From a virus: 10,882 nt of DNA. A program made the translations under genes and the position numbers. Below, one piece after another: positions 1-10,882 of the stretch (its first letter is position 1; every line of letters starts with the position of its first letter). The notes beneath the pieces were generated by a model. That model had not been told where the DNA came from. It ran no database searches and was given only the letters and a program-made list of their open reading frames with translations. The stretch lies in UHGV virus genome UHGV-1704817; one strand, 5' to 3'.

Positions 1-397
1 CGAAAATATTGTTGAGCCGGGGCACACGTACTACATCAAGCCTGATGCGGTATATCTCGGCATCTACGAAGGATTAGTGCTGGCTGGCGTTCATGAAGTG
101 CGTAACTTCTGGCATAGCGTTGTTGAATGCCATGCGGTGTACGACCCCGGATTCCGTGGTGAATATGCACTGCAAGGGCATCGATTATTCTGCAAATGGC
201 TTCTCGAAAACTCACCATTCCTTAACAGCATCACTATGGTTCCTGACACCACAAAATATGGACGGGCAATTATCCGTTTGCTTGGCGCTACCCGTGTTGG
301 TCACCTTGATGATGCTTATATCAGATGTGGTAAACCCGTCGGCGTAACGCTTTATCAGTTAACTCGGCAACAATATAAGGAATTCAGCGAATGTTAA
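1..397 (+). CDS. Phage virion protein, C-terminal part of a gene that starts upstream of the window (position matches a P22 gp14-type gene; function not established)
   Basis: The reading frame is open from base 2 (ENIVEPGHTYYIKPDAVYLG...) and stops at TAA 395-397. Its stop overlaps the next start (ATGTTAA, ATG at 391), indicating translational coupling. Composition matches the following ejection-protein genes. Confidence 0.55.
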   Translation, partial: ENIVEPGHTYYIKPDAVYLGIYEGLVLAGVHEVRNFWHSVVECHAVYDPGFRGEYALQGHRLFCKWLLENSPFLNSITMVPDTTKYGRAIIRLLGATRVGHLDDAYIRCGKPVGVTLYQLTRQQYKEFSEC

Positions 398-1068
398 TTA
401 CCCATATAGCTCATAAACATCTCAATCGTGCCGTATACGAAAAAGGCGGTGATGGTGGTGCCTCTAAAGCTCAGGCGAAGGCCCAGCAGCAGGCAATTGA
501 TTTGCAGCGCGAGCAGTGGAATACGGTGATGAATAATCTCAAGCCGTATGCAGAAGTCGGATTGCCTGCTTTACAACAACTGCAAGGACTGATGACTCTG
601 GAAGGGCAGAATAAAGCCGCGAATGATTTCTTTGGTTCTGGTTTATATAAAACACAGGCAGATCAGGCCCGTTATCAGAACCTTGTCTCAGCAGAAGCTA
701 CCGGGGGGCTTGGCTCAACAGCTACCAGTAACCAGTTATCTTCCATTGCGCCCATGCTTTATAACAATTGGCTTAGTGGGCAAATGCAAAATTATGGAAA
801 CCTGCTAAATGTCGGGATGAATGCGGCATCAGGGCAGGCAACGGCAGGGCAAAACTACGCCAATAATACCGGACAACTCTTGCAGGGGCTTGGCGCTATT
901 CGTGCAGGTCAGGCGCAGCAGCCATCCAGTCTTGCGCGTGGTATTGGTGGGGCAGCATCAGGCGCTTTAGCGGGTGCGCAACTTGGTTCCGTTGTTCCTG
1001 GAATAGGAACTGCGGCCGGCGCTATTGGTGGTGGGCTTATTGGTCTTGTTGGGGGGCTTGGATTCTAA
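391..1068 (+). CDS. Phage DNA-ejection (internal virion) protein, gp7-like by position and size, with glycine-zipper C-terminus
   Basis: 225-aa ORF with AGGA at 378-381, 9 nt before the ATG. The C-terminal ~45 residues are Gly/Ala-rich (GIGGAASGALAGAQLGSVVPGIGTAAGAIGGGLIGLVGGLGF), typical of membrane-inserting segments. The start overlaps the upstream stop and the stop overlaps the downstream start (TAATG at 1066-1070). Confidence 0.8.
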   Translation: MLITHIAHKHLNRAVYEKGGDGGASKAQAKAQQQAIDLQREQWNTVMNNLKPYAEVGLPALQQLQGLMTLEGQNKAANDFFGSGLYKTQADQARYQNLVSAEATGGLGSTATSNQLSSIAPMLYNNWLSGQMQNYGNLLNVGMNAASGQATAGQNYANNTGQLLQGLGAIRAGQAQQPSSLARGIGGAASGALAGAQLGSVVPGIGTAAGAIGGGLIGLVGGLGF

Positions 1069-2387
1069 TGGCGACATGGCAACTTGGCGGGCTGCCTAGC
1101 ATGGCACCGCAAAATGATAATGCTCCTCGTTCTTCCGTTCCTCAGCCTGTGCAGTATCAGCAGCAGCCAAACGTAGGTTTAATGGCGCTACAGGGGCTAA
1201 GAGGCGTTGCTGAGATTAATCAGCAGGCGCAAATTTCCCAGCAGTTAAAAGAATATCAGGCACGGTTGGGTAGTGCGGTAGCTAATAATGATCGTGTTGG
1301 CGTGCAGAAGTTAATGGCCCAGTATCCCCAGTTTATGGCTGATTCTCAAAAACAGATGGGATTCATTGATGCTGAGCAAAATCGACAGACCGCTGACGCT
1401 GCCATGAATCTGCGTCTTGCGTCACAAACTGGAGATCCACTGACCATGCAGAAGGCCATTCAGCAGGCAAATCCAGTATTACAGCGATTTGGTCTTCCTG
1501 CTGAAGAGGTTTATCAGTCTTGGCAGAATGACCCACAGGAATTCAACAGAATCACTGACCTCATCCACCTCCATGCTGATCCAAATAGTTACTTTAGTGT
1601 TCAAGAGAAGCAGCAAGGGCAGAGCATTGCACAGCAGAACGCAGATACATCCGCATATAATGCTCAGGTTAATGCGGAACAGGGTAATCGACGTCTCGAT
1701 ATGGAGCAGTTCAAAGTCCTATCCGATAACCAACTACGCACGAGAGAAATGGTTCTGAAAGCACGACTTGGACGTGCTCAAAATGACATCGAGAGAGACA
1801 AGCTCAATGCTGAACTGAGCAAGGTACAGCAGGCGAAAGTGGAGAAGATGAACGATAAAATTAATACTGTTGTAGGTAACATCGACTCCTTGAACTCTGC
1901 GCTTGAAGTGGGTCATGAACTGGCGGGAATTGTAGGGAAACATCCTTCGGCCGTTACCCGCTCGCAGAACTATAACCCCCTGACGCTGGGGTTTGGATTC
2001 CTTCCTGATGTAGCAGAAGACACACGAAGCCTACGCGCCAAAGCTGATGAATACAACCTAAAGGTTATTCTGCCTAGCCTCAAAGGGACTTTTGGCTCTA
2101 ACCCAACCGAAGGGGAAAGGGCTGCCCTTATGCAATCTCAAAATGGCATTAAGTCAGCAACCAGCAATGAGGCATTTTTGCGAGAGTTGAATAAAGCGCA
2201 GGACGTAATTATTCGAATGCAGAAACGACAGATTGCCGGGCTCGGTATTCCTGTAACCAAATCTAAGGACGAAGAAACTGATACCAAAATGCTGTTGCAG
2301 GATCCTTCACTGGTTAAGGATTATGTGACCGCACATGGCTATCTGCCGGAAAGTTACTATCAGGCAAAACTTAAGGGATGGCAATGA
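1068..2387 (+). CDS. Phage DNA-ejection (internal virion) protein, gp20-like by position and size
   Basis: 439-aa ORF, Gln-rich and predicted helical, coupled to both neighbours (TAATG upstream, ATGA overlap downstream). Second gene of a three-gene block matching the gp7/gp20/gp16 order of P22-like podoviruses. Assignment is by synteny and size, not alignment. Confidence 0.75.
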   Translation: MATWQLGGLPSMAPQNDNAPRSSVPQPVQYQQQPNVGLMALQGLRGVAEINQQAQISQQLKEYQARLGSAVANNDRVGVQKLMAQYPQFMADSQKQMGFIDAEQNRQTADAAMNLRLASQTGDPLTMQKAIQQANPVLQRFGLPAEEVYQSWQNDPQEFNRITDLIHLHADPNSYFSVQEKQQGQSIAQQNADTSAYNAQVNAEQGNRRLDMEQFKVLSDNQLRTREMVLKARLGRAQNDIERDKLNAELSKVQQAKVEKMNDKINTVVGNIDSLNSALEVGHELAGIVGKHPSAVTRSQNYNPLTLGFGFLPDVAEDTRSLRAKADEYNLKVILPSLKGTFGSNPTEGERAALMQSQNGIKSATSNEAFLRELNKAQDVIIRMQKRQIAGLGIPVTKSKDEETDTKMLLQDPSLVKDYVTAHGYLPESYYQAKLKGWQ

Positions 2388-5104
2388 TGGCACAACTGAC
2401 AGAAAAACAGAAAGCCTATTCCCGTCATCTCGATGAAAAATATGGTTTCCCATCAGGGACGATGGAAACATTAGTTGGCAATGAATCTAGTGGTAACGGA
2501 AGTGCCGAGTCACCGAAAGGAGCTAGAGGATTTGCTCAACTGATGCCCTCAGTAATGAGTGATGCTGGTTATCGTGGAACAGATCCGCGCTCACTGCCAT
2601 TTGAAAAGCAAATGGATATCGCAGCAAACCATCTCAATAAAGGAATGAAGCGATTTGGTGATATAGGTATGGCATTGGCTGGGTATAATTCTGGCTATGC
2701 TCGTATTAATGCCGTCAGAAACGGTAAATCTACACTGCCAGATGAAACGGCTAATTACGTAAGTAAATTTGCAGATGCCGGAATAATCCCTGATGACAGT
2801 GAAATCTTGCAGTTTGCACAAACCAGTCAACATCGCAATCTTCAGCAGCCTGACTACTCAGAGCTTGATAAAGAAATCTCTCAGGTGGGAGATATTTCTG
2901 CATGGGAAGCAAAACGTCAGCAATTTAAGAACATAGAAGCAGGACTACCAACAGCCAGTTCATGGGAGCAGAAAAGAGCTCAGTTTCTCGCCGATGAAAA
3001 TGCCGGGGAACCGCAGCAGCAAGTAGCCAAGTCTAACCTTAATCCTGAGATGGAATATCTTTCGCCAGGACTGAAAGCTGCGCCAGAGCAGATGGCCAGA
3101 GGGATTGCTAATATACCGTTTGATGTAATGGACGCAGGCGTGGGGGTAGTCAATGCGGCGCAATCAGCCGGAGCATGGGCAGCTCAGAAGCTTGGTGTGG
3201 GTGATGGCACATACACGCCCATATCACCTGTCTTTCGCCCAGTAGACCAACCTACAGATCCATACGCGCAGGCTGGTGAGCAGCTAGCACCTTACCTTAT
3301 TACAGGATTAGGTGCAGGAAAGGCAGCTACCGCAGCTTCTTCAGTTGCCAACGCTCCACGTGCTGAACGTGCGGCCACAAAGGTGGCTAGTATGTTGGCA
3401 GAAAACCTGCCAGGTACATTGGTGAACGCCCAAAAGAACGGGCAGATCAGCCCAGAAGACCTAGCAAAAGAGACAGGTATTGGCCTAGCAGGATCGCTAG
3501 GAGCACGCGCTTTAATAAAGAGCGGACAGACAGCCAGTGACGTAATGCGAGATGTATTGCGGAGTAATACAAATCAATCAGGCCATGTGTTAGGGGCAGC
3601 AAATACTCTGGAAACCGCCAATGATGTATCGAAAGCAGCGCGTTCTGCCGTAGGCCGAGAGCATATCGCATCGCAGGCATCAAACGTCAGAGATGATGTC
3701 GCTAAGGCGGCGAAAATCACTGGTATTAATATCAACACCCTGACGCCTGGAATGCGCTCAGGTAGTCGTGGAATTGCCCAAGCAGAAGGTGTTCTGGCAT
3801 CAACTCCTGGGAATGTTCAGGATGCTCACCTTACGGCCTTCAATGAAATATCCTCAAAGTTGAATAAGCAGTTGTCTGATTTCGGTGCTGAGTCTGGAAG
3901 CGCATCAGAAAAAAGCGCAGCAATTAAAGAGCGCATCATCGCGAGCCTCAGTGATATGAAAACAGCAGAGAATATGGCATGGGCAGAACTGCGAAGCACG
4001 ATGCCACGCGAAAGGATGAAAATGAGTAATGGGATGGCTGTCGTCCAAGCAGAAAAAGCAGCCAATGTTCCACTCAGCCCGGAGATGAAACAGTTTCAGG
4101 CTGCCAACAACCAAGGTGGCGGCATAACCTTCGACGGGATGAAGGCATGGCGTGCTAAGTTTGCTGATGCTGAACAAGCAAACACCCGGGCAGGTAAGGC
4201 CAATGCCGCCCGGATTGCCGGAGAAATGCGCAGAGCTATCACTGATGACATGCGCATCATGGCTGAAAAAGGAAACTTCCTCACAGAATGGCAGAAAGCT
4301 AACGATCTCTCTAAAAGTTACATTATCGCCAAACAAAATGCCGAATCTGTTTTTGGTCGAGATCTCGCATCAGACGCTATGGTAAGAAAAGGTGCCGATA
4401 CGCTTAAGGCATCCGCAAACACTGGAACGGGAGCTTTTCACCGTCTTATCTCCGCGCTGCCGGAAGCAGAACGCCAACCTGCAATAGCATCTATTCTTCA
4501 GCATGCTGTGGCGCAGGGAGAGAAGGGAGGAATCGGTGAAGAGTCAGGTATCCAGTATTTTGCCAAGCTCATGACCCAGCAGAATGTAAACGCCATCAGT
4601 CGTCATGCGCCAGATCTCGGTAGAATGATGAAAGAGTTCGGTGTACTCGCTAAAGCCAGTACCAGACCGCAGCGATACGTAGAGCGCACGGGAAGAACAA
4701 CTGAGGCTCTCAAAACGCTCGATTCAGGCCTTCCAAAGATCGTCGGCGTGATTATGAACGGAGTTCAACAGTCAGGTGCGATCGCTGGAGGCTTTGGCGG
4801 TGGTGTAATTGGTTCGATTAGTGGTTTGGTTGCTGGTGGCGCGCTAAGAAATGCTGTGGCTAAGATTGGGGCGACAAGAAGTGGTCGATATGCGATAGAG
4901 AAAGCCGTTCAGGAAGCTACAAAAGCAGTGCGCGCAGGGGCATCACCAGCAGCGATCGCCGCAGCAGAGAAACGATTTTCGGCCAATAAAATTGCCATGA
5001 AAGCAATTCGTGATGCCGTTGGGGCTGAAGAATTCGTGAAACTGACAAGGGCCGGGATTGTAGCTACCCTCAGTGGCATGAAAGATGTTAGCGAATGGGA
5101 ATAG
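2384..5104 (+). CDS. Phage DNA-ejection / internal virion protein with N-terminal lytic transglycosylase (SLT) domain
   Basis: Long ORF ending at TAG 5102-5104. The SLT motif set is visible in the first ~120 residues: ES catalytic motif (LVGNESSGNG), GFAQLMP (GLMQ-like) and AGYNSGYARI (AYNxG-like). A glycine-zipper hydrophobic segment lies near the C-terminus (GAIAGGFGGGVIGSISGLVAGGAL). Start chosen at ATG 2384 because AAGGGA (2373-2378) sits 5 nt upstream; the six-frame track starts at 2378, which overlaps that SD; ATG 2387 is also possible. Confidence 0.85.
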   Translation: MMAQLTEKQKAYSRHLDEKYGFPSGTMETLVGNESSGNGSAESPKGARGFAQLMPSVMSDAGYRGTDPRSLPFEKQMDIAANHLNKGMKRFGDIGMALAGYNSGYARINAVRNGKSTLPDETANYVSKFADAGIIPDDSEILQFAQTSQHRNLQQPDYSELDKEISQVGDISAWEAKRQQFKNIEAGLPTASSWEQKRAQFLADENAGEPQQQVAKSNLNPEMEYLSPGLKAAPEQMARGIANIPFDVMDAGVGVVNAAQSAGAWAAQKLGVGDGTYTPISPVFRPVDQPTDPYAQAGEQLAPYLITGLGAGKAATAASSVANAPRAERAATKVASMLAENLPGTLVNAQKNGQISPEDLAKETGIGLAGSLGARALIKSGQTASDVMRDVLRSNTNQSGHVLGAANTLETANDVSKAARSAVGREHIASQASNVRDDVAKAAKITGININTLTPGMRSGSRGIAQAEGVLASTPGNVQDAHLTAFNEISSKLNKQLSDFGAESGSASEKSAAIKERIIASLSDMKTAENMAWAELRSTMPRERMKMSNGMAVVQAEKAANVPLSPEMKQFQAANNQGGGITFDGMKAWRAKFADAEQANTRAGKANAARIAGEMRRAITDDMRIMAEKGNFLTEWQKANDLSKSYIIAKQNAESVFGRDLASDAMVRKGADTLKASANTGTGAFHRLISALPEAERQPAIASILQHAVAQGEKGGIGEESGIQYFAKLMTQQNVNAISRHAPDLGRMMKEFGVLAKASTRPQRYVERTGRTTEALKTLDSGLPKIVGVIMNGVQQSGAIAGGFGGGVIGSISGLVAGGALRNAVAKIGATRSGRYAIEKAVQEATKAVRAGASPAAIAAAEKRFSANKIAMKAIRDAVGAEEFVKLTRAGIVATLSGMKDVSEWE

Positions 5105-5254
5105 ACGCTCTAACTAACAAAACCATAATAGCCAAGGACGGCATACTGATATTGAGCCAACTATCAAAATTCCATATCACATTACGAGCCTGTGGCTTAC
5201 ATTCGCTTACAGTGATGATAATTTATAACCACGCAATTCTTAGGTGAGATTATC

Positions 5255-5953
5255 ATGATTAAAAATCTTCTTTTAATATTATCCCTGTCATTATTGGCTG
5301 GATGCGTACAAAAACCGTTAGTAACGGTCAATGCTTTATCTTCCGGGCAATCTGTCGGTAAGAAGTTCTTGATCATCCCCGCAAGCCAAGAACTTTGGAA
5401 CACCAAACAGATTGAATACACTCAAATAGCTACGGTAGTAGCCGCCAGTTTATCAAGCCAAGGATATACACAAGTTAAAGATGAAAAATTGGCTGACCAG
5501 GTAATTCTCTTGAACTTTTTGAGAAGCGGGGCCATTTCAAATACTCGTAATGTAACCATCCCAATATACGGGCAAACTGGTGTGAGCTCAGCAACAACGT
5601 ACGGAAACTCGAACACCCCGTTCAATAGTTATGGTGGTGGCTACGGTACAGCTAATACCACTGGAACGGCAACAACAGTTTATACGCCTACTTATGGAAT
5701 TACTGGCGCGTATAACACAACTGTGACGGACACGTTCTACGGCGCAGGGGTGATACTCCAGTCGTTTGATGCCAAGGCTTATCTCAATAATCGGCAGATT
5801 AATATGTTATGGAAAGTTGGTAGCTCAGTCGTCTCGCAACAGTCTGATGGAATTGCTGATTACAAAGGGTTGGCGAGAATAGCCGCTAGCTATGCCGGGA
5901 AAAATACAGAAGGTGATATAACTTTTAATGTTGACCCTAAAGCACCAAATTAA
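5255..5953 (+). CDS. Putative lipoprotein (prophage cargo / moron), possible surface or superinfection-exclusion factor
   Basis: 232-aa ORF with SD AGGTGAG (5243-5249). N-terminus MIKNLLLILSLSLLAGC is a signal peptide with a lipobox (LLAG-C, Cys17). Central T/G/Y/N-rich low-complexity stretch (SATTYGNSNTPFNSYGGGYGTANTTGTATTVYTPTYGITGAYNTT). Gene is AT-rich relative to the upstream ejection genes and preceded by a 150-bp AT-rich intergenic region. Confidence 0.75.
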   Translation: MIKNLLLILSLSLLAGCVQKPLVTVNALSSGQSVGKKFLIIPASQELWNTKQIEYTQIATVVAASLSSQGYTQVKDEKLADQVILLNFLRSGAISNTRNVTIPIYGQTGVSSATTYGNSNTPFNSYGGGYGTANTTGTATTVYTPTYGITGAYNTTVTDTFYGAGVILQSFDAKAYLNNRQINMLWKVGSSVVSQQSDGIADYKGLARIAASYAGKNTEGDITFNVDPKAPN

Positions 5954-5960
5954 CTAATAA

Positions 5961-5986
5961 GCCCGGTACGCCGGGCATTCATGCCC
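5961..5986 (+). terminator. Putative intrinsic terminator hairpins downstream of the lipoprotein gene
   Basis: GCCCGG-tacg-CCGGGC (5961-5976) overlapping GGGCAT-tc-ATGCCC (5973-5986), 8 nt after the lipoprotein stop. The following U-tract is weak (ATTCAT..TTATTC), so the call is tentative. Confidence 0.35.
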
Positions 5987-6034
5987 CTATTATTCATGAA
6001 TCGCTTTTTCTGGAAGGTATGCGACAAACGTTAA

Positions 6035-6319
6035 GTGACATTGCCTACACATTCGGGCTCAAATCCGCTCCCAGTTGATGGGGCCGTTACAGTACGCGCA
6101 TATCCGCTTTATGTGAAACAGGAAGATTTTTCTGATATCACAGCCACAGCAAAACACCAATTTCGAGACAAGTACGCACACAATGGAGGGGAGTACCATG
6201 AAACTGTTCTCTACACGAGACAGAGTGGTGGTGATGTGTTGATTATCGGCGTATATGCGCACAGGACGCGCTATGACAATGTTTTATGCGGGTACACCAA
6301 TCACATGTATCTGGTGTGA
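6035..6319 (+). CDS. Questionable ORF (94 codons, GTG start only, no SD); overlaps repeat copy 1; probably a gene relic or non-coding
   Basis: No in-frame ATG start; the track's first codon is GTG at 6035 with no upstream Shine-Dalgarno. Contains the conserved GACAAGTACGC element at 6167-6177. Confidence 0.15.
   Translation: MTLPTHSGSNPLPVDGAVTVRAYPLYVKQEDFSDITATAKHQFRDKYAHNGGEYHETVLYTRQSGGDVLIIGVYAHRTRYDNVLCGYTNHMYLV
6159..6181 (+). repeat. Copy 1 of a diverged direct repeat with perfectly conserved 11-mer GACAAGTACGC
   Basis: AATTTCGA-GACAAGTACGC-ACAC, with the 11-mer at 6167-6177. Same orientation as copies at 6400-6410 and 9105-9115. All three share ATTT(C/T)G(N)GACAAGTACGC(R)C(R)C. Confidence 0.7.
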
Positions 6320-6342
6320 TAAATCGCGTTACATGACCTCTC

Positions 6343-6540
6343 ATGTTGTGCTGGTGGTTATCACGACGTTCTGAATCTGGCTTTTGTCTGATATTTTGCG
6401 ACAAGTACGCGCGCGTAACATCGAAATTATCGGATGGCGTATGTTGCTGGCAAGATAAAGCCGGCGTAATACAAAGGCGTTACTTGATAGCAGCAAGATT
6501 ACAACAATGGTTGTTGAATTTGAGCGATGTAAGGAATTGA
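6343..6540 (+). CDS. Questionable ORF (65 codons); overlaps repeat copy 2; probably non-coding
   Basis: No convincing SD, and the ORF is Cys/Trp-rich in an unusual way. Contains GACAAGTACGC at 6400-6410. Confidence 0.12.
   Translation: MLCWWLSRRSESGFCLIFCDKYARVTSKLSDGVCCWQDKAGVIQRRYLIAARLQQWLLNLSDVRN
6391..6419 (+). repeat. Copy 2 of the GACAAGTACGC repeat family
   Basis: ATATTTTGC-GACAAGTACGC-GCGCGTAAC, with the 11-mer at 6400-6410. About 45 bp around the core aligns with copy 3 at roughly 75% identity with one indel (ctggcttttgtctgatattttgc vs ctggcggtttctggtatttcgg upstream of the core). Confidence 0.7.
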
Positions 6541-6751
6541 TTTAGGGAGGCGCTGATGGCTAAAAAGTTCCACTACCAGCGGATGAATGCGCCAGCGATG
6601 GCCGTTTGGTAGTAAAAGAGGAGCCATTCCTCAATCAGTTGAATACATTATGCCAACTAAATGGGTGGGGCACTGTGTGGGTATTCAGCGGTGACGGTAT
6701 TTTTTAAGCCAAGGACTATCCGTAGCAGGGGGACTCATTTTGAAATATTTA

Positions 6752-7189
6752 TCATATGTAACTTATTATTTTAGATAAAGATTTCCAGTTAAAGAAAAAA
6801 GTTATCATTGATATAATCAAATATGCCCCTGCGAGTAGCAGGGCATAATAATCCAGAGGCAGATTGCTGACAACAGGGGCAAACATCGAGATCATTGCTA
6901 ATAGGCAGGCTGTGATCAGCGTAGTTCCTGTATCAAAAAGCCCCTCAATAATGCCTTTTAGTACTCCGTTACTTTTTAGAGCGCCTACAATTCCCTTTGA
7001 ACTATCAAAGCTACTTAGCATGGTGACTGATGCCAAAACAAAACCAAAGAGAACTCCAGAAATAGTTGAAAGAGCACCAGCAGCCGAAATGACAGCATTG
7101 TGATCTAGGTCGTGTAAAAAATGGGCACCAGCAATAGCCATAGCTAGAGCAAACAATGACTTGGCAGCAAACAATTTCCGAGAACTCAT
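6752..7189 (-). CDS. Small multi-pass inner-membrane protein (145 aa, about four TM helices); second gene of a two-gene operon; candidate membrane effector
   Basis: Minus-strand ORF with AGGA 7 nt upstream of its ATG. It starts 12 bp after the TAA stop of the 361-aa gene. Four long hydrophobic segments (about residues 9-24, 32-60, 85-110, 113-135) and an HDLDH motif in the first loop. AT-rich. Confidence 0.75.
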   Translation of the reverse strand: MSSRKLFAAKSLFALAMAIAGAHFLHDLDHNAVISAAGALSTISGVLFGFVLASVTMLSSFDSSKGIVGALKSNGVLKGIIEGLFDTGTTLITACLLAMISMFAPVVSNLPLDYYALLLAGAYLIISMITFFFNWKSLSKIISYI

Positions 7190-7201
7190 AATGTATTCCT
7201 G

Positions 7202-8287
7202 TTACGTTTGACTAACCAAATAGTACTGGGTTAGATACCTAAGGTTGTCATTCTTTGCTTGTAGCATAGCATTTTTAACGTCAGTATCGGTCGGATACCC
7301 ATCTGCTTGGATAGGCACCATCTTCTTTACCGTAAGAACTTCGTCTACAAGACTTTTCTTCTTTTTATCGCCCTGAGCAACAACATTTGCTTTCTCAAAA
7401 GTTAAACGACCATCACCACCAGGGAACTTTTCTAGCATCTCCTTAAGGCTTTTTTTAACGTCATCCTCAAGCCATCCCTTTGCTTTTCTTTTTAATGGAG
7501 AATGTCCGCGTAACGAAATAGTCAGGTGGCTTGAACTGGTGCCTCTGATCATCTCAATCATCTGATTCGCGAACATTCCATCGAGTTGATACTGTGCGGC
7601 ATTGAAGTTTCTTGGGATGGCCACAGAAATCTCGCAGCTTCTTAGATTGGATCCAGTTTCGAGTAGTTCTTTGATGCTTTCTTCTTTCCAAATGGCTTCA
7701 AAAGAAACAGGGACTCCGCGATCACTGGAGTTGAAAAGAAGGAAGGCTAAGTCACTATGGCGTGGACCTAAATGATTTAAAGACAATACTAGAATGTCTG
7801 TCTGAGGATAATAAATAAAGTATGTACGTTCTGAAAGAGTCTTTGCCCCGGCTAGAGGGATTTTCTCTTCCACCCACTCTTTATCTGTAATATATGCCAG
7901 TGTTGCGCTTTTTCTTCTTCGAGACATGAATCCGAAGTAGGAGCCATCCTCGGGTGAGATGTCTAGAAAATGAATTTTAAGTTCTCTTTCACCAAAGTCT
8001 GCATAGTGGGTCATCTTGAAGTCTTTAGAACACCGATCATACAGATTTTTAAAGGCCTCTGCGGTTAACCCCTTGTTACTAGTGCGAATATTCTCAGAGC
8101 TTGTGTAAAAGCCCACCCTTACAGATTTCAAACTTTGATCTTTTGGTGCCACAGTCATTTGAGCTCCATTGTACTCTGCGATAGTTTTTGCACACCTTGA
8201 AATCAAAATCTCCATGTCAGTCACGAGAAAATAACTATGGATGAAACCCATCAAAGGCATTGAATACAGGTGGCTTTTGAGAATCAT
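7202..8287 (-). CDS. Hypothetical soluble protein (361 aa), first gene of a two-gene operon with the downstream membrane protein; candidate sensor/enzymatic component of a defence or abortive-infection module
   Basis: Long minus-strand ORF with AGG(T) about 5 nt upstream of ATG 8287. A sampled 60-bp stretch (7441-7500) is 38% GC, against roughly 50% by eye for the phage late genes. No Walker A or other catalytic motif recognised by eye. Preceded by a 487-bp AT-rich divergent control region. Confidence 0.8.
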   Translation of the reverse strand: MILKSHLYSMPLMGFIHSYFLVTDMEILISRCAKTIAEYNGAQMTVAPKDQSLKSVRVGFYTSSENIRTSNKGLTAEAFKNLYDRCSKDFKMTHYADFGERELKIHFLDISPEDGSYFGFMSRRRKSATLAYITDKEWVEEKIPLAGAKTLSERTYFIYYPQTDILVLSLNHLGPRHSDLAFLLFNSSDRGVPVSFEAIWKEESIKELLETGSNLRSCEISVAIPRNFNAAQYQLDGMFANQMIEMIRGTSSSHLTISLRGHSPLKRKAKGWLEDDVKKSLKEMLEKFPGGDGRLTFEKANVVAQGDKKKKSLVDEVLTVKKMVPIQADGYPTDTDVKNAMLQAKNDNLRYLTQYYLVSQT

Positions 8288-8637
8288 CCTAACCTGGTGA
8301 CGGTGGTTCGCATATCCTGATGGATGATCAGTGATTAATCAATGCGCCAAGCAGATGTGTCTATGTGTTTGTTAATCATTGCATGACAGTAGATCGACAT
8401 GGGAGATCACGTTATATAGTTGAATTGTTAGGATATCCATGCACCGATCAACTGACTAGGCTGATGTGCTTTTTAGCAGGTGCCATATAGTAGTTAGGCG
8501 GTTCTGTGAAATGATTACTGTTCCAGCATAACTGCGGCATAAAGCGGTGCTATATAAGCTATTTGCTGGCGGATTTAGTCTTCACCGTTAATATATGTAG
8601 TGACTATTTGACAGAGTGTTAGTTCACGGACACTTTT

Positions 8638-8670
8638 TGTTGGTTCAAAATGAGTTGATGTTGGTTCAAT
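8638..8670. repeat. Two copies of TGTTGGTTCAA (reverse complement of TTGAACCAACA) spaced 21 bp apart; putative regulator-binding sites
   Basis: TGTTGGTTCAA at 8638-8648 and 8659-8669, start-to-start spacing 21 bp (two helical turns). Inverted relative to the tandem array at 8712-8738. Confidence 0.65.
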
Positions 8671-8711
8671 ATTTTAGAAAAAACACAATAAAAACAACGC
8701 TCTTTACAAAT

Positions 8712-8738
8712 TGAACCAACTGAACCAACTGAACCAAC
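8712..8738. repeat. Three perfect tandem copies of TGAACCAAC (iteron/operator-like) immediately upstream of the PerC-like gene promoter region
   Basis: TGAACCAAC at 8712-8720, 8721-8729 and 8730-8738 with no spacer, ending 17 bp before TATAAT (8756-8761). Confidence 0.7.
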
Positions 8739-8774
8739 ACCTTTTTGCTTATCTATATAATCTGAGAGGCAGAA

Positions 8775-9056
8775 ATGATAAGGGACAGGAAAGCTGAAGA
8801 GCTGGAGTCAAAAGGGCTATACCGGAGAGCTGCCGCACGATGGATGGAAGTCATGCTGTTATGCACCGAGGACGATGATCGGGAATGGATAAAGCGCCGC
8901 CGTGAAACGTGTCTGGAGAACGTGAAGCGCCCGCCCGTGAAGGTTGAGGAATTTGGCGACCTGCATAAAGCTGTTACCGAAACGCAACACCGCATGGGGA
9001 TAGCGCAACCGAACGGTAACGCCTTCCGGTTAAATGGCGGCAAGAGGCAAAGGTAG
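8775..9056 (+). CDS. PerC-family-like small transcriptional regulator (prophage-encoded, Pch/PerC-type)
   Basis: 93-aa ORF with SD GAGAGG 5 nt upstream. The N-terminal motif AEELESKGLYRRAAARWMEVMLL matches the LE..G(L/W).RRAA.RW signature I recall for PerC/Pch proteins; this is from memory, not alignment. Basic C-terminus. GC is higher than in the flanking cargo. Confidence 0.6.
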   Translation: MIRDRKAEELESKGLYRRAAARWMEVMLLCTEDDDREWIKRRRETCLENVKRPPVKVEEFGDLHKAVTETQHRMGIAQPNGNAFRLNGGKRQR

Positions 9057-9094
9057 ACCACCAGAGGGAAATCATCCTCTGGCTGGCGGTTTCT

Positions 9095-9123
9095 GGTATT
9101 TCGGGACAAGTACGCGCACGCGT
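9095..9123 (+). repeat. Copy 3 of the GACAAGTACGC repeat family
   Basis: GGTATTTCGG-GACAAGTACGC-GCACGCGT, with the 11-mer at 9105-9115, 49 bp downstream of the PerC-like stop and in the same reading frame as that gene. Confidence 0.7.
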
Positions 9124-9228
9124 AGCACCCAATCGGTGAGGAAATAGCGGCGACCTGAATGGTCAAAATCACAACGCAGCTATCCCCGTAAGCATCGCTT
9201 AACGGAATAGCAGTAACCTGAATCCAGT

Positions 9229-9293
9229 GGGGAGGGGGTAGTCAAATCTCTACAGGCCTGACTATCCGGGACTGCCCGCCCCATCGTTTTTTT
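9229..9293 (+). terminator. Putative Rho-independent terminator (GC-rich imperfect stem plus T7 tract)
   Basis: GGGGAGGG (9229-9236) can pair with CCCGCCCC (9275-9282), giving 7 GC pairs and one mismatch around an internal CGGG-actg-CCCG hairpin (9267-9278). It is followed by ATCG and TTTTTTT (9287-9293). The structure is non-canonical, hence low confidence. Confidence 0.35.
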
Positions 9294-9353
9294 ATACCCG
9301 CGAAAAATGAAATTTAATCCGGGCGTGTTTCATCCTTCCAGAGGGTATGACGT

Positions 9354-9539
9354 ATGACACCACGCGAAATAGCCTTATTGACCATCGCCAAACTTGAGCA
9401 CGGAGGCCACCAGCTTACACAGGCAGATCAACGGGAGATAGAACGATCAGTTAATGCCGATATAGCCCGGCGCGACAGGTTCCGCGAAATGATGCGAGCA
9501 CCTGCCTACCAGTGGAAGAAGCCAGCGCCGCGCAGGTAG
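9354..9539 (+). CDS. Small hypothetical protein (61 aa), predicted helical and basic
   Basis: ATG preceded by GAGGG with 8-nt spacing, located just after the putative terminator, suggesting its own transcription unit. No recognisable family motif. Confidence 0.45.
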   Translation: MTPREIALLTIAKLEHGGHQLTQADQREIERSVNADIARRDRFREMMRAPAYQWKKPAPRR

Positions 9540-9659
9540 ATATGGGATTATTCCACATGTAACTTATGCGTATTAAGCAAATTTCCTTTATTCACCTTTA
9601 CAGAATTGTGAGTACGTCAGTATCGTTATCCTTCCGATTCGCATTTATTCAGGATTTGC

Positions 9660-10202
9660 ATGTACCAGCTAAAGATAACCATCCGAGACAGCAAACCACC
9701 TATATGGCGGCGTGTGCTGGTTCCAGAGCAAATCCCCTTTAGTAAACTTCATGCCGTGATCCAGTTAGCTTTTGGCTGGAATGACGAACACCTGTATATG
9801 TTCGAGAAAGGGCGTAAAGGTGATCCAGGTAGCGAGTATCGCGTATGGGGTGAGGATGAAAGCATGGGTAACGCGGCAATCACGCCACTATGGGCGGCGC
9901 TCCAGAATGAGGGTGACAAGCTGGTTTACACGTATGACTTTGGCGACTGGTGGGATTGCGTCATTGTGCTGGAGAAGCAAACACACGATACGAGTAATCA
10001 GCCCATTAGCTGCCTGCGTGGGAAAGGCACCACCCCGGCGGAAAACTCAGGCGGCTTGCATGGTTACAATGAATTGCTATTACAGGCCAGAGAGTCTGAT
10101 AATCCTGAGCAGGCCGAGATCCACAATTTCCTGATGCTGGATATTGAACGCCGGGTTTACGACCTGAGCCGCATCAACGACAGATTGCAGGCTATTAACT
10201 GA
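9660..10202 (+). CDS. PRiA4_ORF3-like (plasmid pRiA4b ORF-3 / MM3350-like domain) protein
   Basis: 180-aa ORF with AGGA 5 nt upstream. The N-terminus YQLKITIRDSKPPIWRRVLVPEQIPFSKLHAVIQLAFGW matches the hallmark of this family (YQLK..L....PPIWRR..VP......LH..IQ...GW) from memory. Confidence 0.7.
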   Translation: MYQLKITIRDSKPPIWRRVLVPEQIPFSKLHAVIQLAFGWNDEHLYMFEKGRKGDPGSEYRVWGEDESMGNAAITPLWAALQNEGDKLVYTYDFGDWWDCVIVLEKQTHDTSNQPISCLRGKGTTPAENSGGLHGYNELLLQARESDNPEQAEIHNFLMLDIERRVYDLSRINDRLQAIN

Positions 10203-10554
10203 CCCGCATGTATTCACCTGATATTGAGTTATCAGCGCCGCCAGTATCGCGCATAACAGCACAATGACCGGGTAAACCGTAACGCACGACCGTTGCGTTA
10301 GTCTCACCGCCGCGCCGTATCTGGCGCGATTCATACACTGTCACCCGCTCAAGCAGTCCACCAGCAACCATGCTTTCCAGTGTGCGCCGGGTTGATTCGA
10401 GCTGGTGACGCTTATCGAACGACACCATGCCATGAAGCAGGTAGGCCACACCCGACACATCGAACGGCGGCGCACCACTCTCACCAGTCACCCATTCGAG
10501 GTTATCCGGTTCAAAGTAGCTAAGTATCTCTTTTTTGCGGCTGGTCATTCTCAT
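10195..10554 (-). CDS. Hypothetical protein, putative winged-helix DNA-binding protein; convergent with and overlapping the 3' end of the PRiA4_ORF3-like gene by 8 bp
   Basis: 119-aa minus-strand ORF with AAGGAA 13 nt upstream of the ATG. Segment RRTLESMVAGGLLERVTVYESRQIRRGG resembles a recognition helix plus wing (GLLER followed by a beta-hairpin) of wHTH regulators. GC-rich relative to the cargo. Confidence 0.5.
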   Translation of the reverse strand: MRMTSRKKEILSYFEPDNLEWVTGESGAPPFDVSGVAYLLHGMVSFDKRHQLESTRRTLESMVAGGLLERVTVYESRQIRRGGETNATVVRYGLPGHCAVMRDTGGADNSISGEYMRVS

Positions 10555-10703
10555 GGCTGGTTGATTCCTTATTGTGGGATAGCACTATCATACAATAAGT
10601 GGGTTAAAGGGAGAGCGTTACCGCCTGATATGCTGTATGAATAACAACCAAATTTCAGGGGCGGAAAAAGATATGGGGGTACTTTTGGGGGTATCTATAA
10701 AAA

Positions 10704-10882
10704 ATGAACAATAAAAAAGGCAACAAAAACAAAGCTTATCGCCTATGTGTATTGTTCCTATTATCGCACCATTTAAATCAAGTAGTTACCCCATATTTAA
10801 ATACACCACGTTTCCTCCTGTGCCGTATTTGTGCCATTGTAACCCTGGCAATTAATCAAAATACTGTTCTGACATCAGGCAA
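10704..10882 (+). CDS. Possible 5' end of a gene running off the window (59 codons open, Lys/Asn-rich N-terminus then a hydrophobic stretch); very tentative
   Basis: ATG at 10704 is open to the window end in frame (MNNKKGNKNKAYRLCVLFLLSHHL...). There is no good SD and the region is AT-rich, so this may simply be open frame in intergenic DNA. Confidence 0.15.
   Translation, partial: MNNKKGNKNKAYRLCVLFLLSHHLNQVVTPYLNTPRFLLCRICAIVTLAINQNTVLTSG

What the first reader, a model, noticed from the sequence alone, without database searches (positions are those of the whole stretch)
6752..8287. AT-rich two-gene operon (361-aa soluble protein plus 145-aa four-helix membrane protein) in the prophage cargo slot: candidate undescribed anti-phage / abortive-infection module
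Seen in sequence: two minus-strand genes separated by only 12 bp, the second with a good SD, so almost certainly co-transcribed. The first is a 361-aa soluble protein with no motif I can assign to a known family (no Walker A, no obvious nuclease, kinase or nucleotidyltransferase signature). The second is a 145-aa protein that is almost entirely four hydrophobic helices. The pair is markedly AT-rich (one 60-bp stretch at 7441-7500 is 38% GC; the phage late genes look near 50% by eye) and sits behind a 487-bp AT-rich control region. Established knowledge: the slot between ejection-protein genes and the tail-fibre/tailspike position in P22-like and lambdoid prophages is a recognised hotspot for superinfection-exclusion and defence cargo, and many abortive-infection systems pair a cytoplasmic sensor with a small membrane-disrupting effector. 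Lambda RexA/RexB has the same gene order, with RexB about 144 aa and four TM helices. Inference: this is a defence or exclusion module, possibly new; I see no sequence similarity to RexA/RexB and claim only architectural analogy.
Basis: partly seen in the sequence, partly recalled or inferred. Interest (0 to 1): 0.82.

Follow-up and report, generated by a model that had tools for sequence, protein, structure and literature searches.

The report
Divergent RexA/RexB-type phage exclusion gene pair
The two genes are remote but genuine relatives of phage lambda's RexA/RexB exclusion system (a DNA-binding sensor and a four-helix membrane effector), carried as a swappable cassette in a small E. coli island, so this is an unannotated branch of a known defence type, not a new one.

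Summary
The gene pair is real: minus strand, 12-nt spacer, Shine-Dalgarno sites, 41% GC against 49-52% in the flanks. The first gene is 318 aa (ATG at 8158), not 361 aa.

No Pfam, NCBIfam or PADLOC model hits either protein. PHROGs places both in families of unknown function.

**145-aa partner.** It has four helices and an N-in/C-in charge pattern. Its widened family profile matches RexB (89-93%; controls at most 2%).

**Linkage.** Both genes are adjacent in 87/87 related loci and in 14/15 distant DUF6731 loci. Two distant loci show the lambda order, cI-like repressor then the pair.

**Setting.** The pair fills a variable cassette (window 6461-8637). AbiD replaces it in another E. coli strain.

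**Verdict.** This is a new, unannotated member of the RexAB-type abortive-infection/exclusion kind. Function is inferred and was not tested. Interest is moderate.

The parts
7202..8158 (-). rexA-like gene, 318 aa. Predicted cytoplasmic two-domain RexA/RdgC-fold protein, a divergent relative of Pfam DUF6731.
8159..8287 (-). The 43-codon 5' extension of the largest ORF. Most likely untranslated leader, not part of the protein.
   Evidence: No homologue has this extension and PGAP omits it. ATG 8287 has a poor Shine-Dalgarno context. The region is about 74% conserved as DNA in the Klebsiella-type variants.
7190..7201 (-). 12-nt spacer between the two genes, holding the AGGA ribosome-binding site for the second gene. 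This supports co-transcription.
   Evidence: Sequence. Short same-strand spacing is seen in 87/87 related loci.
6752..7189 (-). rexB-like gene, 145 aa. Four-helix inner-membrane protein with predicted N-in/C-in topology and a conserved central cytoplasmic loop.
   Evidence: The ORF is. It hits phrog_8552 at E 4e-54. The AF2 model has four long helices. K/R residues lie in the N-terminus, the central loop and the C-terminus, and D/E residues lie in the other two loops. hhalign of the widened family against RexB gives 88.8%, E 2.5e-6, with reversed controls at most 2%. The rank-2 Foldseek BFVD hit is a 165-aa Sbash protein, the length of gp31.
8281..8337 (-). Conserved 57-nt upstream element (CACTGATCATCCATCAGGATATGCGAAC...AGGTTAGGATGATTC), 123-179 nt before the start codon. 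Candidate operator or leader.
   Evidence: It is shared with Klebsiella-type variants and with the upstream regions of canonical RexA-family genes L113, L117 and L118. In IMG/VR the extended motif occurs 13 times. In nine of these it precedes rex-type genes, in two a HipA-like two-gene operon (shown for L195, inferred for L247), and two loci end too early to tell.
6461..8637 (.). Variable cargo cassette that contains the pair, its leader and its downstream region. It is flanked by sequence conserved in islands that carry other cargo.
   Evidence: blastn of the window against L145 and L146 gives shared flanks 1-6460 (L145) or 1-6424 (L146) and 8638-10881. The alternative cargo is AbiD plus a 147-aa protein in L145, or 73-aa plus 147-aa proteins in L146.
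6618..6632 (-). Terminator-like hairpin followed by a T-run, 120 nt downstream of the rexB-like stop codon. Candidate operon terminator, with weak support.
   Evidence: Pattern scan. The number of such sites found does not exceed the shuffle expectation.
8638..8739 (.). Cluster of GTTGGTTCA / TGAACCAAC repeats (three tandem copies facing two inverted copies) at the right edge of the cassette, upstream of perC.
   Evidence: the repeat finder. The cassette boundary falls at 8638. A second, inverted copy at 78% identity lies upstream of the ejection-gene block in the same island.

Best explanation
The pair is a RexAB-type two-component phage exclusion (abortive-infection) module carried as mobile cargo.

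**Proposed mechanism**
- The 318-aa cytoplasmic protein is a remote homologue of lambda RexA, with the RexA/RdgC fold. It is probably a dimeric, non-specific DNA-binding sensor.
- On infection by a sensitive phage it would detect a phage product or a phage DNA-protein intermediate.
- It would then activate the co-expressed 145-aa four-helix inner-membrane RexB homologue through that protein's central cytoplasmic loop.
- The membrane protein would permeabilise or depolarise the membrane. ATP would fall, growth would arrest and the infection would abort.

**Shown here**
- Homology of both proteins to RexA and RexB, by fold and by profile.
- Four-helix architecture of the small protein.
- Strict gene linkage and gene order.
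- Cassette behaviour in a slot that alternatively holds AbiD.

**Inferred from the published Rex-type systems**
- DNA binding and dimerisation.
- Activation of the membrane protein by the soluble protein.
- Membrane depolarisation.
- An anti-phage phenotype.
For: **Large protein**
- The AF2 model has pLDDT 75 and pTM 0.65.
- In Foldseek against PDB, RexA is the only hit with E <= 1e-3 (7.3e-7, prob 1.0). RdgC comes next.
- hhalign of a 139-sequence family profile against the RexA family gives 93.8% local (E 1.8e-7; 254 columns; query 14-313 against RexA 2-270) and 96.9% global. Reversed and cross controls give 0.1-0.3%.
- Pairwise BLASTP is collinear at 27% identity over 128 columns and shares the GFY and GP..SDL motifs.

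**Small protein**
- The model has four helices and the charge distribution fits N-in/C-in topology.
- hhalign of the widened family against RexB gives 88.8%. Distant partners against RexB give 93.1%, and small against distant partners gives 98.6%. Reversed controls give 0.5-2%.

**Linkage and context**
- The two genes are adjacent in 87/87 related loci and in 14/15 distant DUF6731 loci. In L129 and L142 a CI-like repressor gene lies directly upstream on the same strand, as in lambda cI-rexA-rexB.
- The module occurs in unrelated elements: the Q-to-lysis slot of lambdoid phages including phage cdtI, a Vibrio Vinavirales prophage, and this island.
- The same slot holds AbiD in strain EH01-18-02.

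**Published precedent**
Against: - No phenotype exists for this pair or for any DUF6731 member; a full-text search for DUF6731 and PF20505 found no paper.
- Pfam RexA and RexB, and the PADLOC models, do not hit either protein.
- A narrow profile against RexA fails, at about 1%. HMM-to-sequence search of PDB does not find RexA.
- The RexB link rests on transitive profile matches over about 80 columns of a hydrophobic protein. Composition can inflate such scores, although the reversed controls argue against that here.
- Foldseek TM-scores to RexA are low (0.34-0.37), because the two domains are oriented differently in model and crystal.
- The pair is not next to an immunity repressor in this window.
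- No sigma-70 consensus promoter was found upstream.
- Even for lambda, the authors of the RexA structure question whether exclusion is the primary function (PMC11077077).
Confidence: 0.7

Rival explanations
1. The pair has Rex-type proteins but Butters-type reversed logic. The soluble RexA-like protein would be the toxic or antiviral effector. The membrane protein would only sequester it until infection releases it.
For: The mycobacteriophage Butters gp30/gp31 system works this way, as summarised in PMC12894663. Nothing in my data tells the two wirings apart. The large protein carries about 40 residues more than lambda RexA.
Against: According to PMC12894663, lambda RexAB, RexABpp, Sbash gp30/31 and CarolAnn gp44/43 use the membrane protein as effector. 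The most conserved part of the small protein is TM2, the central loop and TM3. That corresponds to the cytoplasmic loop in which R70A and D73A abolish defence in Sbash gp31. This suits an activatable channel.
Confidence: 0.1
2. The main role is regulation of a mobile element's own life cycle, not defence. Lambda RexA biases the CI/Cro switch towards lytic growth, and exclusion might be a by-product.
For: Lambda RexA has this activity independently of RexB (PMC11077077). Some distant DUF6731 pairs sit directly after a CI-like repressor gene.
Against: - In this island, and in the lambdoid Q-to-lysis slot, the pair is far from any repressor/Cro switch.
- The island has no lytic genes of its own.
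- The pair behaves as interchangeable cargo with AbiD.
- The pair also occurs in unrelated element types.
Confidence: 0.1
3. The pair is a different membrane-plus-soluble defence system (for example Kiwa KwaA/KwaB), or a holin-like or lysis-accessory pair, or a toxin-antitoxin-like addiction module that stabilises the island.
For: A small four-TM protein next to a soluble protein of about 300 aa also describes Kiwa (from my own knowledge). In lambdoid phages the distant homologues lie next to lysis genes.
Against: - PADLOC, which I expect to include Kiwa models, gives no hit.
- Gene order here is soluble protein first, as in Rex.
- In lambdoid phages the pair is transcribed opposite to the late and lysis operon.
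Confidence: 0.04
4. The pair is decaying cargo with no current function.
For: The host island is partly degraded in some strains, with primase or injection-protein pseudogenes. No consensus promoter was found.
Against: - Both ORFs are intact and the 1651-nt query is at least 99% identical in all 42 E. coli genomes that carry it, 100% in the 25 listed.
- Both proteins show family-wide conservation with many invariant positions.
- Linkage is kept down to about 25% identity.
- A conserved upstream element travels with the module.
Confidence: 0.06

Closest known systems
Phage lambda RexA/RexB (Pfam PF15969 / PF15968; RexA structure PDB 8TWQ)
   Same: - The gene order is the same: soluble protein first, then a roughly 145-aa four-TM protein. 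The spacer is short in both: 12 nt here and 15 nt in lambda.
- The small protein matches RexB over TM1 to TM3 and has the same predicted N-in/C-in topology.
- Some distant family members keep the cI-rexA-rexB arrangement.
   Different: - Neither protein reaches the Pfam RexA or RexB models, nor any PADLOC model.
- Structure-based identity to RexA is about 13-15%.
- The large protein is about 40 aa longer, and its relatives fall in a separate Pfam family, DUF6731.
- Here the pair is a stand-alone cassette with its own upstream region, not part of the immunity operon driven by P_RM.
- The phage target spectrum is unknown.
Pseudomonas putida prophage P1 RexABpp (PP_5643/PP_5644; Rosendahl et al. 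2026, PMC12894663)
   Same: - It is a prophage-borne pair comprising a soluble protein (37.5 kDa with its His tag) and a four-TM protein.
- It gives experimental precedent that such remote pairs do defend against phage, bind DNA and damage membranes.
   Different: The host and the element differ. I could not obtain the PP_5643 sequence, so I do not know whether it belongs to DUF6731 or how close it is to this protein. Its RexB-like partner had no HHpred link to RexB, whereas the partner here does have a profile link.
Actinophage Rex-like systems: Sbash gp30/gp31, CarolAnn gp44/gp43 and Butters gp30/gp31
   Same: - Each is a prophage-expressed two-gene module with a soluble protein and a four-TM protein.
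- The central cytoplasmic loop of the membrane protein is functionally critical in Sbash gp31.
- The rank-2 BFVD structural match of my small-protein model is a 165-aa Sbash protein, the length of gp31.
   Different: No profile-to-sequence similarity was detectable between Sbash gp30/gp31 and either my families or the lambda families (hhalign <= 0.2%). The soluble proteins are larger (337-372 aa). Butters uses reversed logic.
E. coli RdgC and kinetochore IML3/CHL4/CENP-N (same fold superfamily)
   Different: They score far below RexA, have no membrane partner, and serve housekeeping recombination or kinetochore roles.

Membership tests
RexAB-type two-component exclusion systems (broad sense, as used in PMC11077077 and PMC12894663) | Soluble component with the RexA/RdgC two-domain fold | tested here: met
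RexAB-type two-component exclusion systems (broad sense) | Sequence-level homology of the soluble component to RexA | tested here: met
   Wide-profile hhalign gives 93.8% local and 96.9% global over a full-length collinear alignment, with reversed and cross controls at 0.1-0.3%. This holds only with a wide profile; the narrow profile fails.
RexAB-type two-component exclusion systems (broad sense) | Small four-TM inner-membrane partner encoded immediately downstream on the same strand | tested here: met
   The partner is 145 aa, has four helices, shows an N-in/C-in charge pattern and follows a 12-nt spacer. It is adjacent in 87/87 and 14/15 loci.
RexAB-type two-component exclusion systems (broad sense) | Homology of the membrane partner to RexB | tested here: inconclusive
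   hhalign gives 88.8-93.1% (E 2.5e-6 to 3e-7) over about 80 columns through intermediate sequences, with reversed controls at 0.5-2%. The narrow profile gives only 24% and BLASTP finds nothing. No RexB structure exists for comparison. This is supportive, but the protein is short and hydrophobic.
RexAB-type two-component exclusion systems (broad sense) | Carried by a prophage or mobile element and expressed in the lysogen | tested here: inconclusive
   Carriage on mobile elements is shown. Expression was not testable, and no consensus promoter was found.
RexAB-type two-component exclusion systems (broad sense) | Both genes required for exclusion of superinfecting phage; activation causes membrane depolarisation or permeabilisation | not testable with these tools
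   This needs plating assays, membrane-potential dyes and RexA-like over-expression tests.
RexAB-type two-component exclusion systems (broad sense) | Soluble component is a dimeric non-specific DNA-binding protein | not testable with these tools
   There is only an indirect hint. A conserved basic patch (GDKKKKS, residues 263-269) aligns next to RexA R219/K221, the residues required for DNA binding.
Pfam RexA (PF15969) / RexB (PF15968), i.e. lambda Rex in the strict sense | Score above the Pfam gathering threshold for the RexA and RexB models | tested here: not met
   Neither model hits at E <= 1, whereas lambda RexA and RexB score 327 and 305 bits. The pair is therefore not a member of these Pfam families.
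Pfam RexA (PF15969) / RexB (PF15968), i.e. lambda Rex in the strict sense | Location directly downstream of the cI immunity repressor, co-transcribed from P_RM | tested here: not met
   In the window and in L144 the neighbours are a lipoprotein gene and perC. The feature is met only in some distant DUF6731 loci, L129 and L142.
Pfam DUF6731 (PF20505) | Score above the gathering threshold for PF20505 | tested here: not met
   The window protein gives no hit at E <= 1. Homologues at 43-49% identity do carry PF20505. More distant relatives found with the family profile also score on PF20505. The protein is best described as a divergent sister clade of DUF6731.
Kiwa (KwaA/KwaB) | KwaB DUF4868 domain and KwaA membrane protein detected by PADLOC or Pfam models | tested here: not met
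   There are no PADLOC or Pfam hits, and no Kiwa chain appears among the structural hits.

The most novel reading that the evidence does not exclude
The conserved 57-nt element upstream of the pair (8281-8337) may be a shared regulatory switch. In IMG/VR it precedes three different cargo types: this DUF6731-type rex pair, canonical RexA-family pairs, and a two-gene operon with a HipA-like kinase. It could be an operator or leader that couples expression of interchangeable defence cassettes to one signal from the host or from an infecting phage. Under this reading the DUF6731/four-TM clade would be a stand-alone Rex lineage, uncoupled from the immunity region, with its own trigger specificity. 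One possible trigger is the ejection proteins of P22-like phages, whose homologues sit beside it in this island.
Probability: 0.12. Interest if true: 0.7.

Novelty: new member of a known kind. Interest (0 to 1): 0.5.

Why it matters
[quoted passage not shown] Seventy years after Benzer, how Rex senses infection is still unknown.
- This analysis links a whole unannotated family to RexAB: Pfam DUF6731 and its divergent enterobacterial sister clade, together with their obligate four-TM partner. The profile search found 133 cluster representatives of the large protein across Enterobacterales, Vibrio, Shewanella and Pseudoalteromonas.
- PADLOC currently misses these loci. In two phage records the large protein is even mis-annotated as a portal protein.
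- The link provides many natural RexA and RexB variants for comparative and mutational work. The conserved GFY and GP..SDL motifs, the basic patch and the central loop of the membrane protein are obvious starting points.
- It also provides an E. coli-native Rex-type system that is not entangled with the lambda CI/Cro switch. That would make it easier to separate sensing and exclusion from lysogeny control.
- The pair is present in the asymptomatic-bacteriuria strain ABU 83972 and in other E. coli from human hosts, which is relevant to predicting phage susceptibility.

Tried and rejected
- **Direct family scans.** Pfam, NCBIfam and PADLOC gave nothing for either protein. Weak hits to TubZ_C and DUF2649 were dismissed as noise.
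- **DNA search.** Megablast against 50,697 phage records found no match.
- **Narrow profile.** hhalign of the 26-sequence alignment A1 against lambda RexA or the RexA family failed, at 0.3-0.9%. Only the widened profile worked.
- **BLASTP.** The small protein against RexB gave nothing.
- **HMM-to-sequence search of PDB.** The distant DUF6731 profile did not find RexA; the only hits were chance matches to eIF2-alpha.
- **Sbash.** hhalign against Sbash gp30 and gp31 as single sequences found no similarity.
- **GTDB species-representative scan.** It returned only 3 loci.
- **The look-up of encoding contigs.** I used an IMG/VR scan with alignment A3 instead.
- **Promoter and terminator scan.** No minus-strand sigma-70 consensus site lies in 8159-8774, and the number of sites found did not exceed the shuffle expectation.
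- **Rfam.** No hit anywhere in the window.
- **Accession guess.** My first guess for phage Sbash (KP027195) was wrong; that record is phage Cosmo. KP027201 is correct.
- **Readings considered and rejected.** Kiwa, a holin or lysis accessory, and a housekeeping RdgC paralogue; see the rival explanations.
Full report
**1. Observation**

The window contains two adjacent minus-strand ORFs, 6752-7189 (145 aa) and 7202-8287 (largest ORF 361 aa), 12 nt apart. An AGGA lies 8 nt before the second start codon.

The pair is 40.8% GC. The upstream ejection-protein genes are 49.2% and the right flank is 51.9%. These parts of the finding are confirmed.

The length of the first gene needs correcting:
- All 25 homologues aligned with it begin at the position of Met44.
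- PGAP annotates 957 nt in two complete genomes.
- phrog_7651 aligns from residue 46.
- ATG 8158 has a GGAG 6 nt upstream, whereas ATG 8287 has only an abutting AGG.

The protein is therefore 318 aa (7202-8158), and the upstream non-coding stretch is 616 nt (8159-8774).

**2. Direct annotation fails**

Pfam, NCBIfam and PADLOC give no significant hit for either protein. PHROGs places them in phrog_7651 and phrog_8552, both of unknown function.

A word-indexed search of 5.8 billion proteins finds 36 relatives of the large protein in Enterobacterales. Those at 43-49% identity carry Pfam DUF6731. No paper in the library mentions DUF6731 or PF20505.

**3. The large protein is a RexA homologue**

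An AlphaFold2 model built on the 26-sequence alignment has pLDDT 75 and pTM 0.65.

| Test | Result |
|---|---|
| Foldseek vs PDB | RexA the only hit with E <= 1e-3 (7.3e-7, prob 1.0); RdgC next |
| BLASTP vs lambda RexA | 27% identity over a collinear 128-column alignment; shared GFY and GP..SDL motifs |
| hhalign, narrow profile (A1) | about 1% |
| hhalign, wide profile, local | 93.8%, E 1.8e-7, 254 columns, query 14-313 vs RexA 2-270 |
| hhalign, wide profile, global | 96.9% |
| Reversed-template and cross-family controls | 0.1-0.3% |

The wide profile combines alignment A1 with 113 distant relatives. These came from an exhaustive hmmsearch of 1.84 billion representatives, which gave 133 hits; nine of the ten hits I scanned against Pfam (eight of them distant, 284-306 aa) score on DUF6731. 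The RexA-side profile holds 29 sequences.

In that alignment the conserved basic patch GDKKKKS (263-269) lies next to RexA R219/K221, the residues needed for DNA binding.

**4. The small protein is RexB-like**

The AF2 model has four long helices, at 3-24, 30-63, 76-103 and 112-144 (pLDDT 69). Lys and Arg cluster in the N-terminus, the central loop and the C-terminus. Asp and Glu cluster in the other two loops. This predicts N-in/C-in topology with a central cytoplasmic loop, as described for Sbash gp31; RexB is likewise a four-TM protein.

Profile comparison is transitive:

| Comparison | Probability | E-value |
|---|---|---|
| Close family (32 sequences) vs RexB family (16 sequences) | 24% | 8e-4 |
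| Close family plus 13 partners of distant DUF6731 genes vs RexB | 88.8% | 2.5e-6 (columns 19-101 vs 24-105) |
| Distant partners alone vs RexB | 93.1% | 3.2e-7 |
| Close family vs distant partners | 98.6% | 5e-16 |
| Reversed RexB controls | 0.5-2% | - |

The matched region is TM2, the central loop and TM3. This is the most conserved part of the family. It corresponds to the loop in which R70A and D73A abolish defence in Sbash gp31.

No RexB structure exists in PDB. Foldseek against BFVD gives only weak hits. The rank-2 hit is a 165-aa uncharacterised protein of phage Sbash. Gene 31 of Sbash, the RexB-like partner, encodes 165 aa. Identity of the two entries is likely but not proven.

I rate RexB homology as supported but weaker than RexA homology.

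**5. Linkage and mobility**

- In all 87 loci carrying a relative of the large gene, a homologue of the small gene follows on the same strand (gaps between the tblastn matches 16-125 nt). The loci come from E. coli genomes, IMG/VR and GTDB representatives.
- In 14 of 15 IMG/VR loci carrying distant DUF6731 genes (25-30% identical to the Shewanella-type reference in 13 loci, 59-61% in two), a 138-154-aa multi-helix hydrophobic protein homologous to the small protein follows immediately.
- In L129 and L142 a CI-like S24 repressor gene lies directly upstream on the same strand, which is the lambda cI-rexA-rexB order.

Relatives at 42-45% identity occur in different kinds of element. In lambdoid prophages and in phage cdtI they sit between the Q antiterminator and the lysis genes, transcribed against the late operon. 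One also occurs in a 14.6-kb Vibrio Vinavirales prophage, next to the integrase gene.

**6. Setting of this copy**

The window is 99% identical to E. coli TUM17668. The 1651-nt query spanning the pair (window 6700-8350) is present at 99% identity or more in 42 of 5,426 complete E. coli genomes (100% in the 25 listed), including ABU 83972, where the island begins just after the tRNA-Thr gene downstream of proA.

The element is a roughly 15-kb island. In order it carries an integrase, an HTH regulator, a TOPRIM/DUF927 primase, a DUF2824 gene, three P22-type ejection-protein genes, a lipoprotein gene, the variable slot, PerC, a 61-aa gene, a PRiA4b-ORF3 gene and a 119-aa gene. It has no capsid, terminase or tail genes.

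Comparison with islands that share both flanks defines the cassette as window 6461-8637. In strain EH01-18-02 the cassette is replaced by AbiD (PADLOC E 3e-57; Pfam Abi_2) plus a 147-aa protein. In strain LF4-1 it is replaced by two small genes. The slot is therefore a cargo and defence hotspot.

**7. Mechanism**

By homology, I propose that the 318-aa protein is a dimeric DNA-binding sensor. On infection it would activate the 145-aa membrane protein through that protein's central loop. Depolarisation or permeabilisation, ATP loss and aborted infection would follow.

This matches what is proposed for lambda RexAB and what was shown in part for P. putida RexABpp, Sbash gp30/31 and CarolAnn gp44/43.

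Shown here are fold, profile homology, architecture, linkage and hotspot context. DNA binding, activation, depolarisation and phenotype are inferred.

The alternatives are Butters-type reversed logic, a role in lysogeny control, or decayed cargo. None is excluded, but each is less likely; see the rival explanations.

**8. Comparison and novelty**

By single-sequence hhalign, the accepted actinophage Rex-like proteins (Sbash gp30/gp31) show no detectable similarity to lambda Rex or to this pair.

The finding is therefore a new, unannotated member (a sister clade of DUF6731) of a known kind of system. It is not a categorically new one. Interest is moderate. The value lies in linking a whole DUF family and its partner to Rex, and in offering an E. 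coli-native Rex-type module that is uncoupled from the CI/Cro switch.

**9. Side observation**

A 57-nt element at 8281-8337 is conserved upstream of this module and its Klebsiella-type variants. It is also conserved upstream of canonical RexA-family genes in L113, L117 and L118.

In IMG/VR the extended motif occurs 13 times:
- nine copies precede one of the two rex-type genes;
- two (L195, L247) share a different downstream sequence, which in L195 is a two-gene operon with a HipA-like kinase (PADLOC PDC-M66A, weak hit);
- two loci end too early to tell.

Its function is unknown. No sigma-70 consensus promoter was found in the region.

Noticed in passing
window 8281-8337 (minus strand); also L010-L015, L113, L114, L117, L118, L195, L247: A 57-nt element (CACTGATCATCCATCAGGAT..GCGAAC..AGGTTAGGATGATTC) lies 100-180 nt upstream of three different cargo operons: this pair, canonical RexA-family pairs, and a HipA-like kinase pair. 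It may be a shared operator or leader for swappable cassettes. It contains short inverted repeats (CTGAT-N5-ATCAG). No sigma-70 consensus promoter was found nearby.
   Followed up: partly
window 8638-8739: Three tandem TGAACCAAC repeats face two inverted GTTGGTTCA copies, exactly at the right edge of the variable cassette and upstream of perC. A second, inverted copy at 78% identity lies between the primase gene and the ejection-gene block of the same island (L144 18192-18317). These may be regulator or recombinase binding sites.
   Followed up: partly
window 1-5104 and L144 14666-29900: The host element is a roughly 15-kb island with an integrase and a primase. It carries intact P22-type ejection-protein genes (225, 439 and 908 aa; the 908-aa protein has a lytic transglycosylase domain) but no capsid, terminase or tail genes. 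It is either a decayed prophage or a satellite-like element that supplies ejection proteins.
   Followed up: partly
window 5255-5953 (+): A 232-aa lipoprotein (lipobox LLAGC) is conserved in all island variants, just before the variable slot. It has weak similarity to DUF4136 and TraT (E 0.02-0.1). It may be a surface or superinfection-exclusion factor.
   Followed up: no
L145 7848-9256 and L146 6996-7740 (same slot in other E. coli strains): Alternative cargo occupies the identical slot: AbiD (320 aa) plus a 147-aa protein in L145, or a 73-aa protein plus the same 147-aa protein in L146. By eye the 147-aa protein looks ribbon-helix-helix-like at its N-terminus; this was not tested.
   Followed up: partly
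phage records ON470608.1 (30253-31170) and ON470622.1 (15482-16399): The DUF6731/RexA-like homologue is annotated as 'portal (connector) protein' in two Escherichia phage genomes. This is almost certainly a mis-annotation.
   Followed up: no
L148 (Vibrio phage 10N.286.54.F4_PE001, genes 2-3, 1389-2896): A 351-aa protein whose C-terminal ~240 residues match the large protein (35% identity), followed directly by a 150-aa gene (not examined further), lies next to the integrase gene of a 14.6-kb Vinavirales (PM2-like) temperate element. This points to a rex-type module outside tailed phages.
   Followed up: partly
window 8775-9056, 9354-9539, 9660-10202 (+) and 10195-10554 (-): The conserved right arm of the island encodes a PerC-family regulator, a 61-aa protein, a PRiA4b ORF-3-like protein (PF07929, E 1e-42) and a convergent, slightly overlapping 119-aa gene that matches no family. 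Their functions are unknown.
   Followed up: no
window 6035-6319 (+): A 94-aa GTG-start ORF lies between the lipoprotein gene and the cassette. PGAP does not annotate it in TUM17668, and in ABU 83972 a 129-aa CDS is called on the opposite strand of the corresponding region. It is probably not a gene. It gives a weak PADLOC HamA hit (E 0.009), judged to be noise.
   Followed up: no
L144 9604-14125 (E. coli TUM17668, left of the island): A DUF262 protein gene and a retron Ec67-family reverse transcriptase/endonuclease gene lie directly beside the island's integrase gene. The neighbourhood is therefore a defence island.
   Followed up: no
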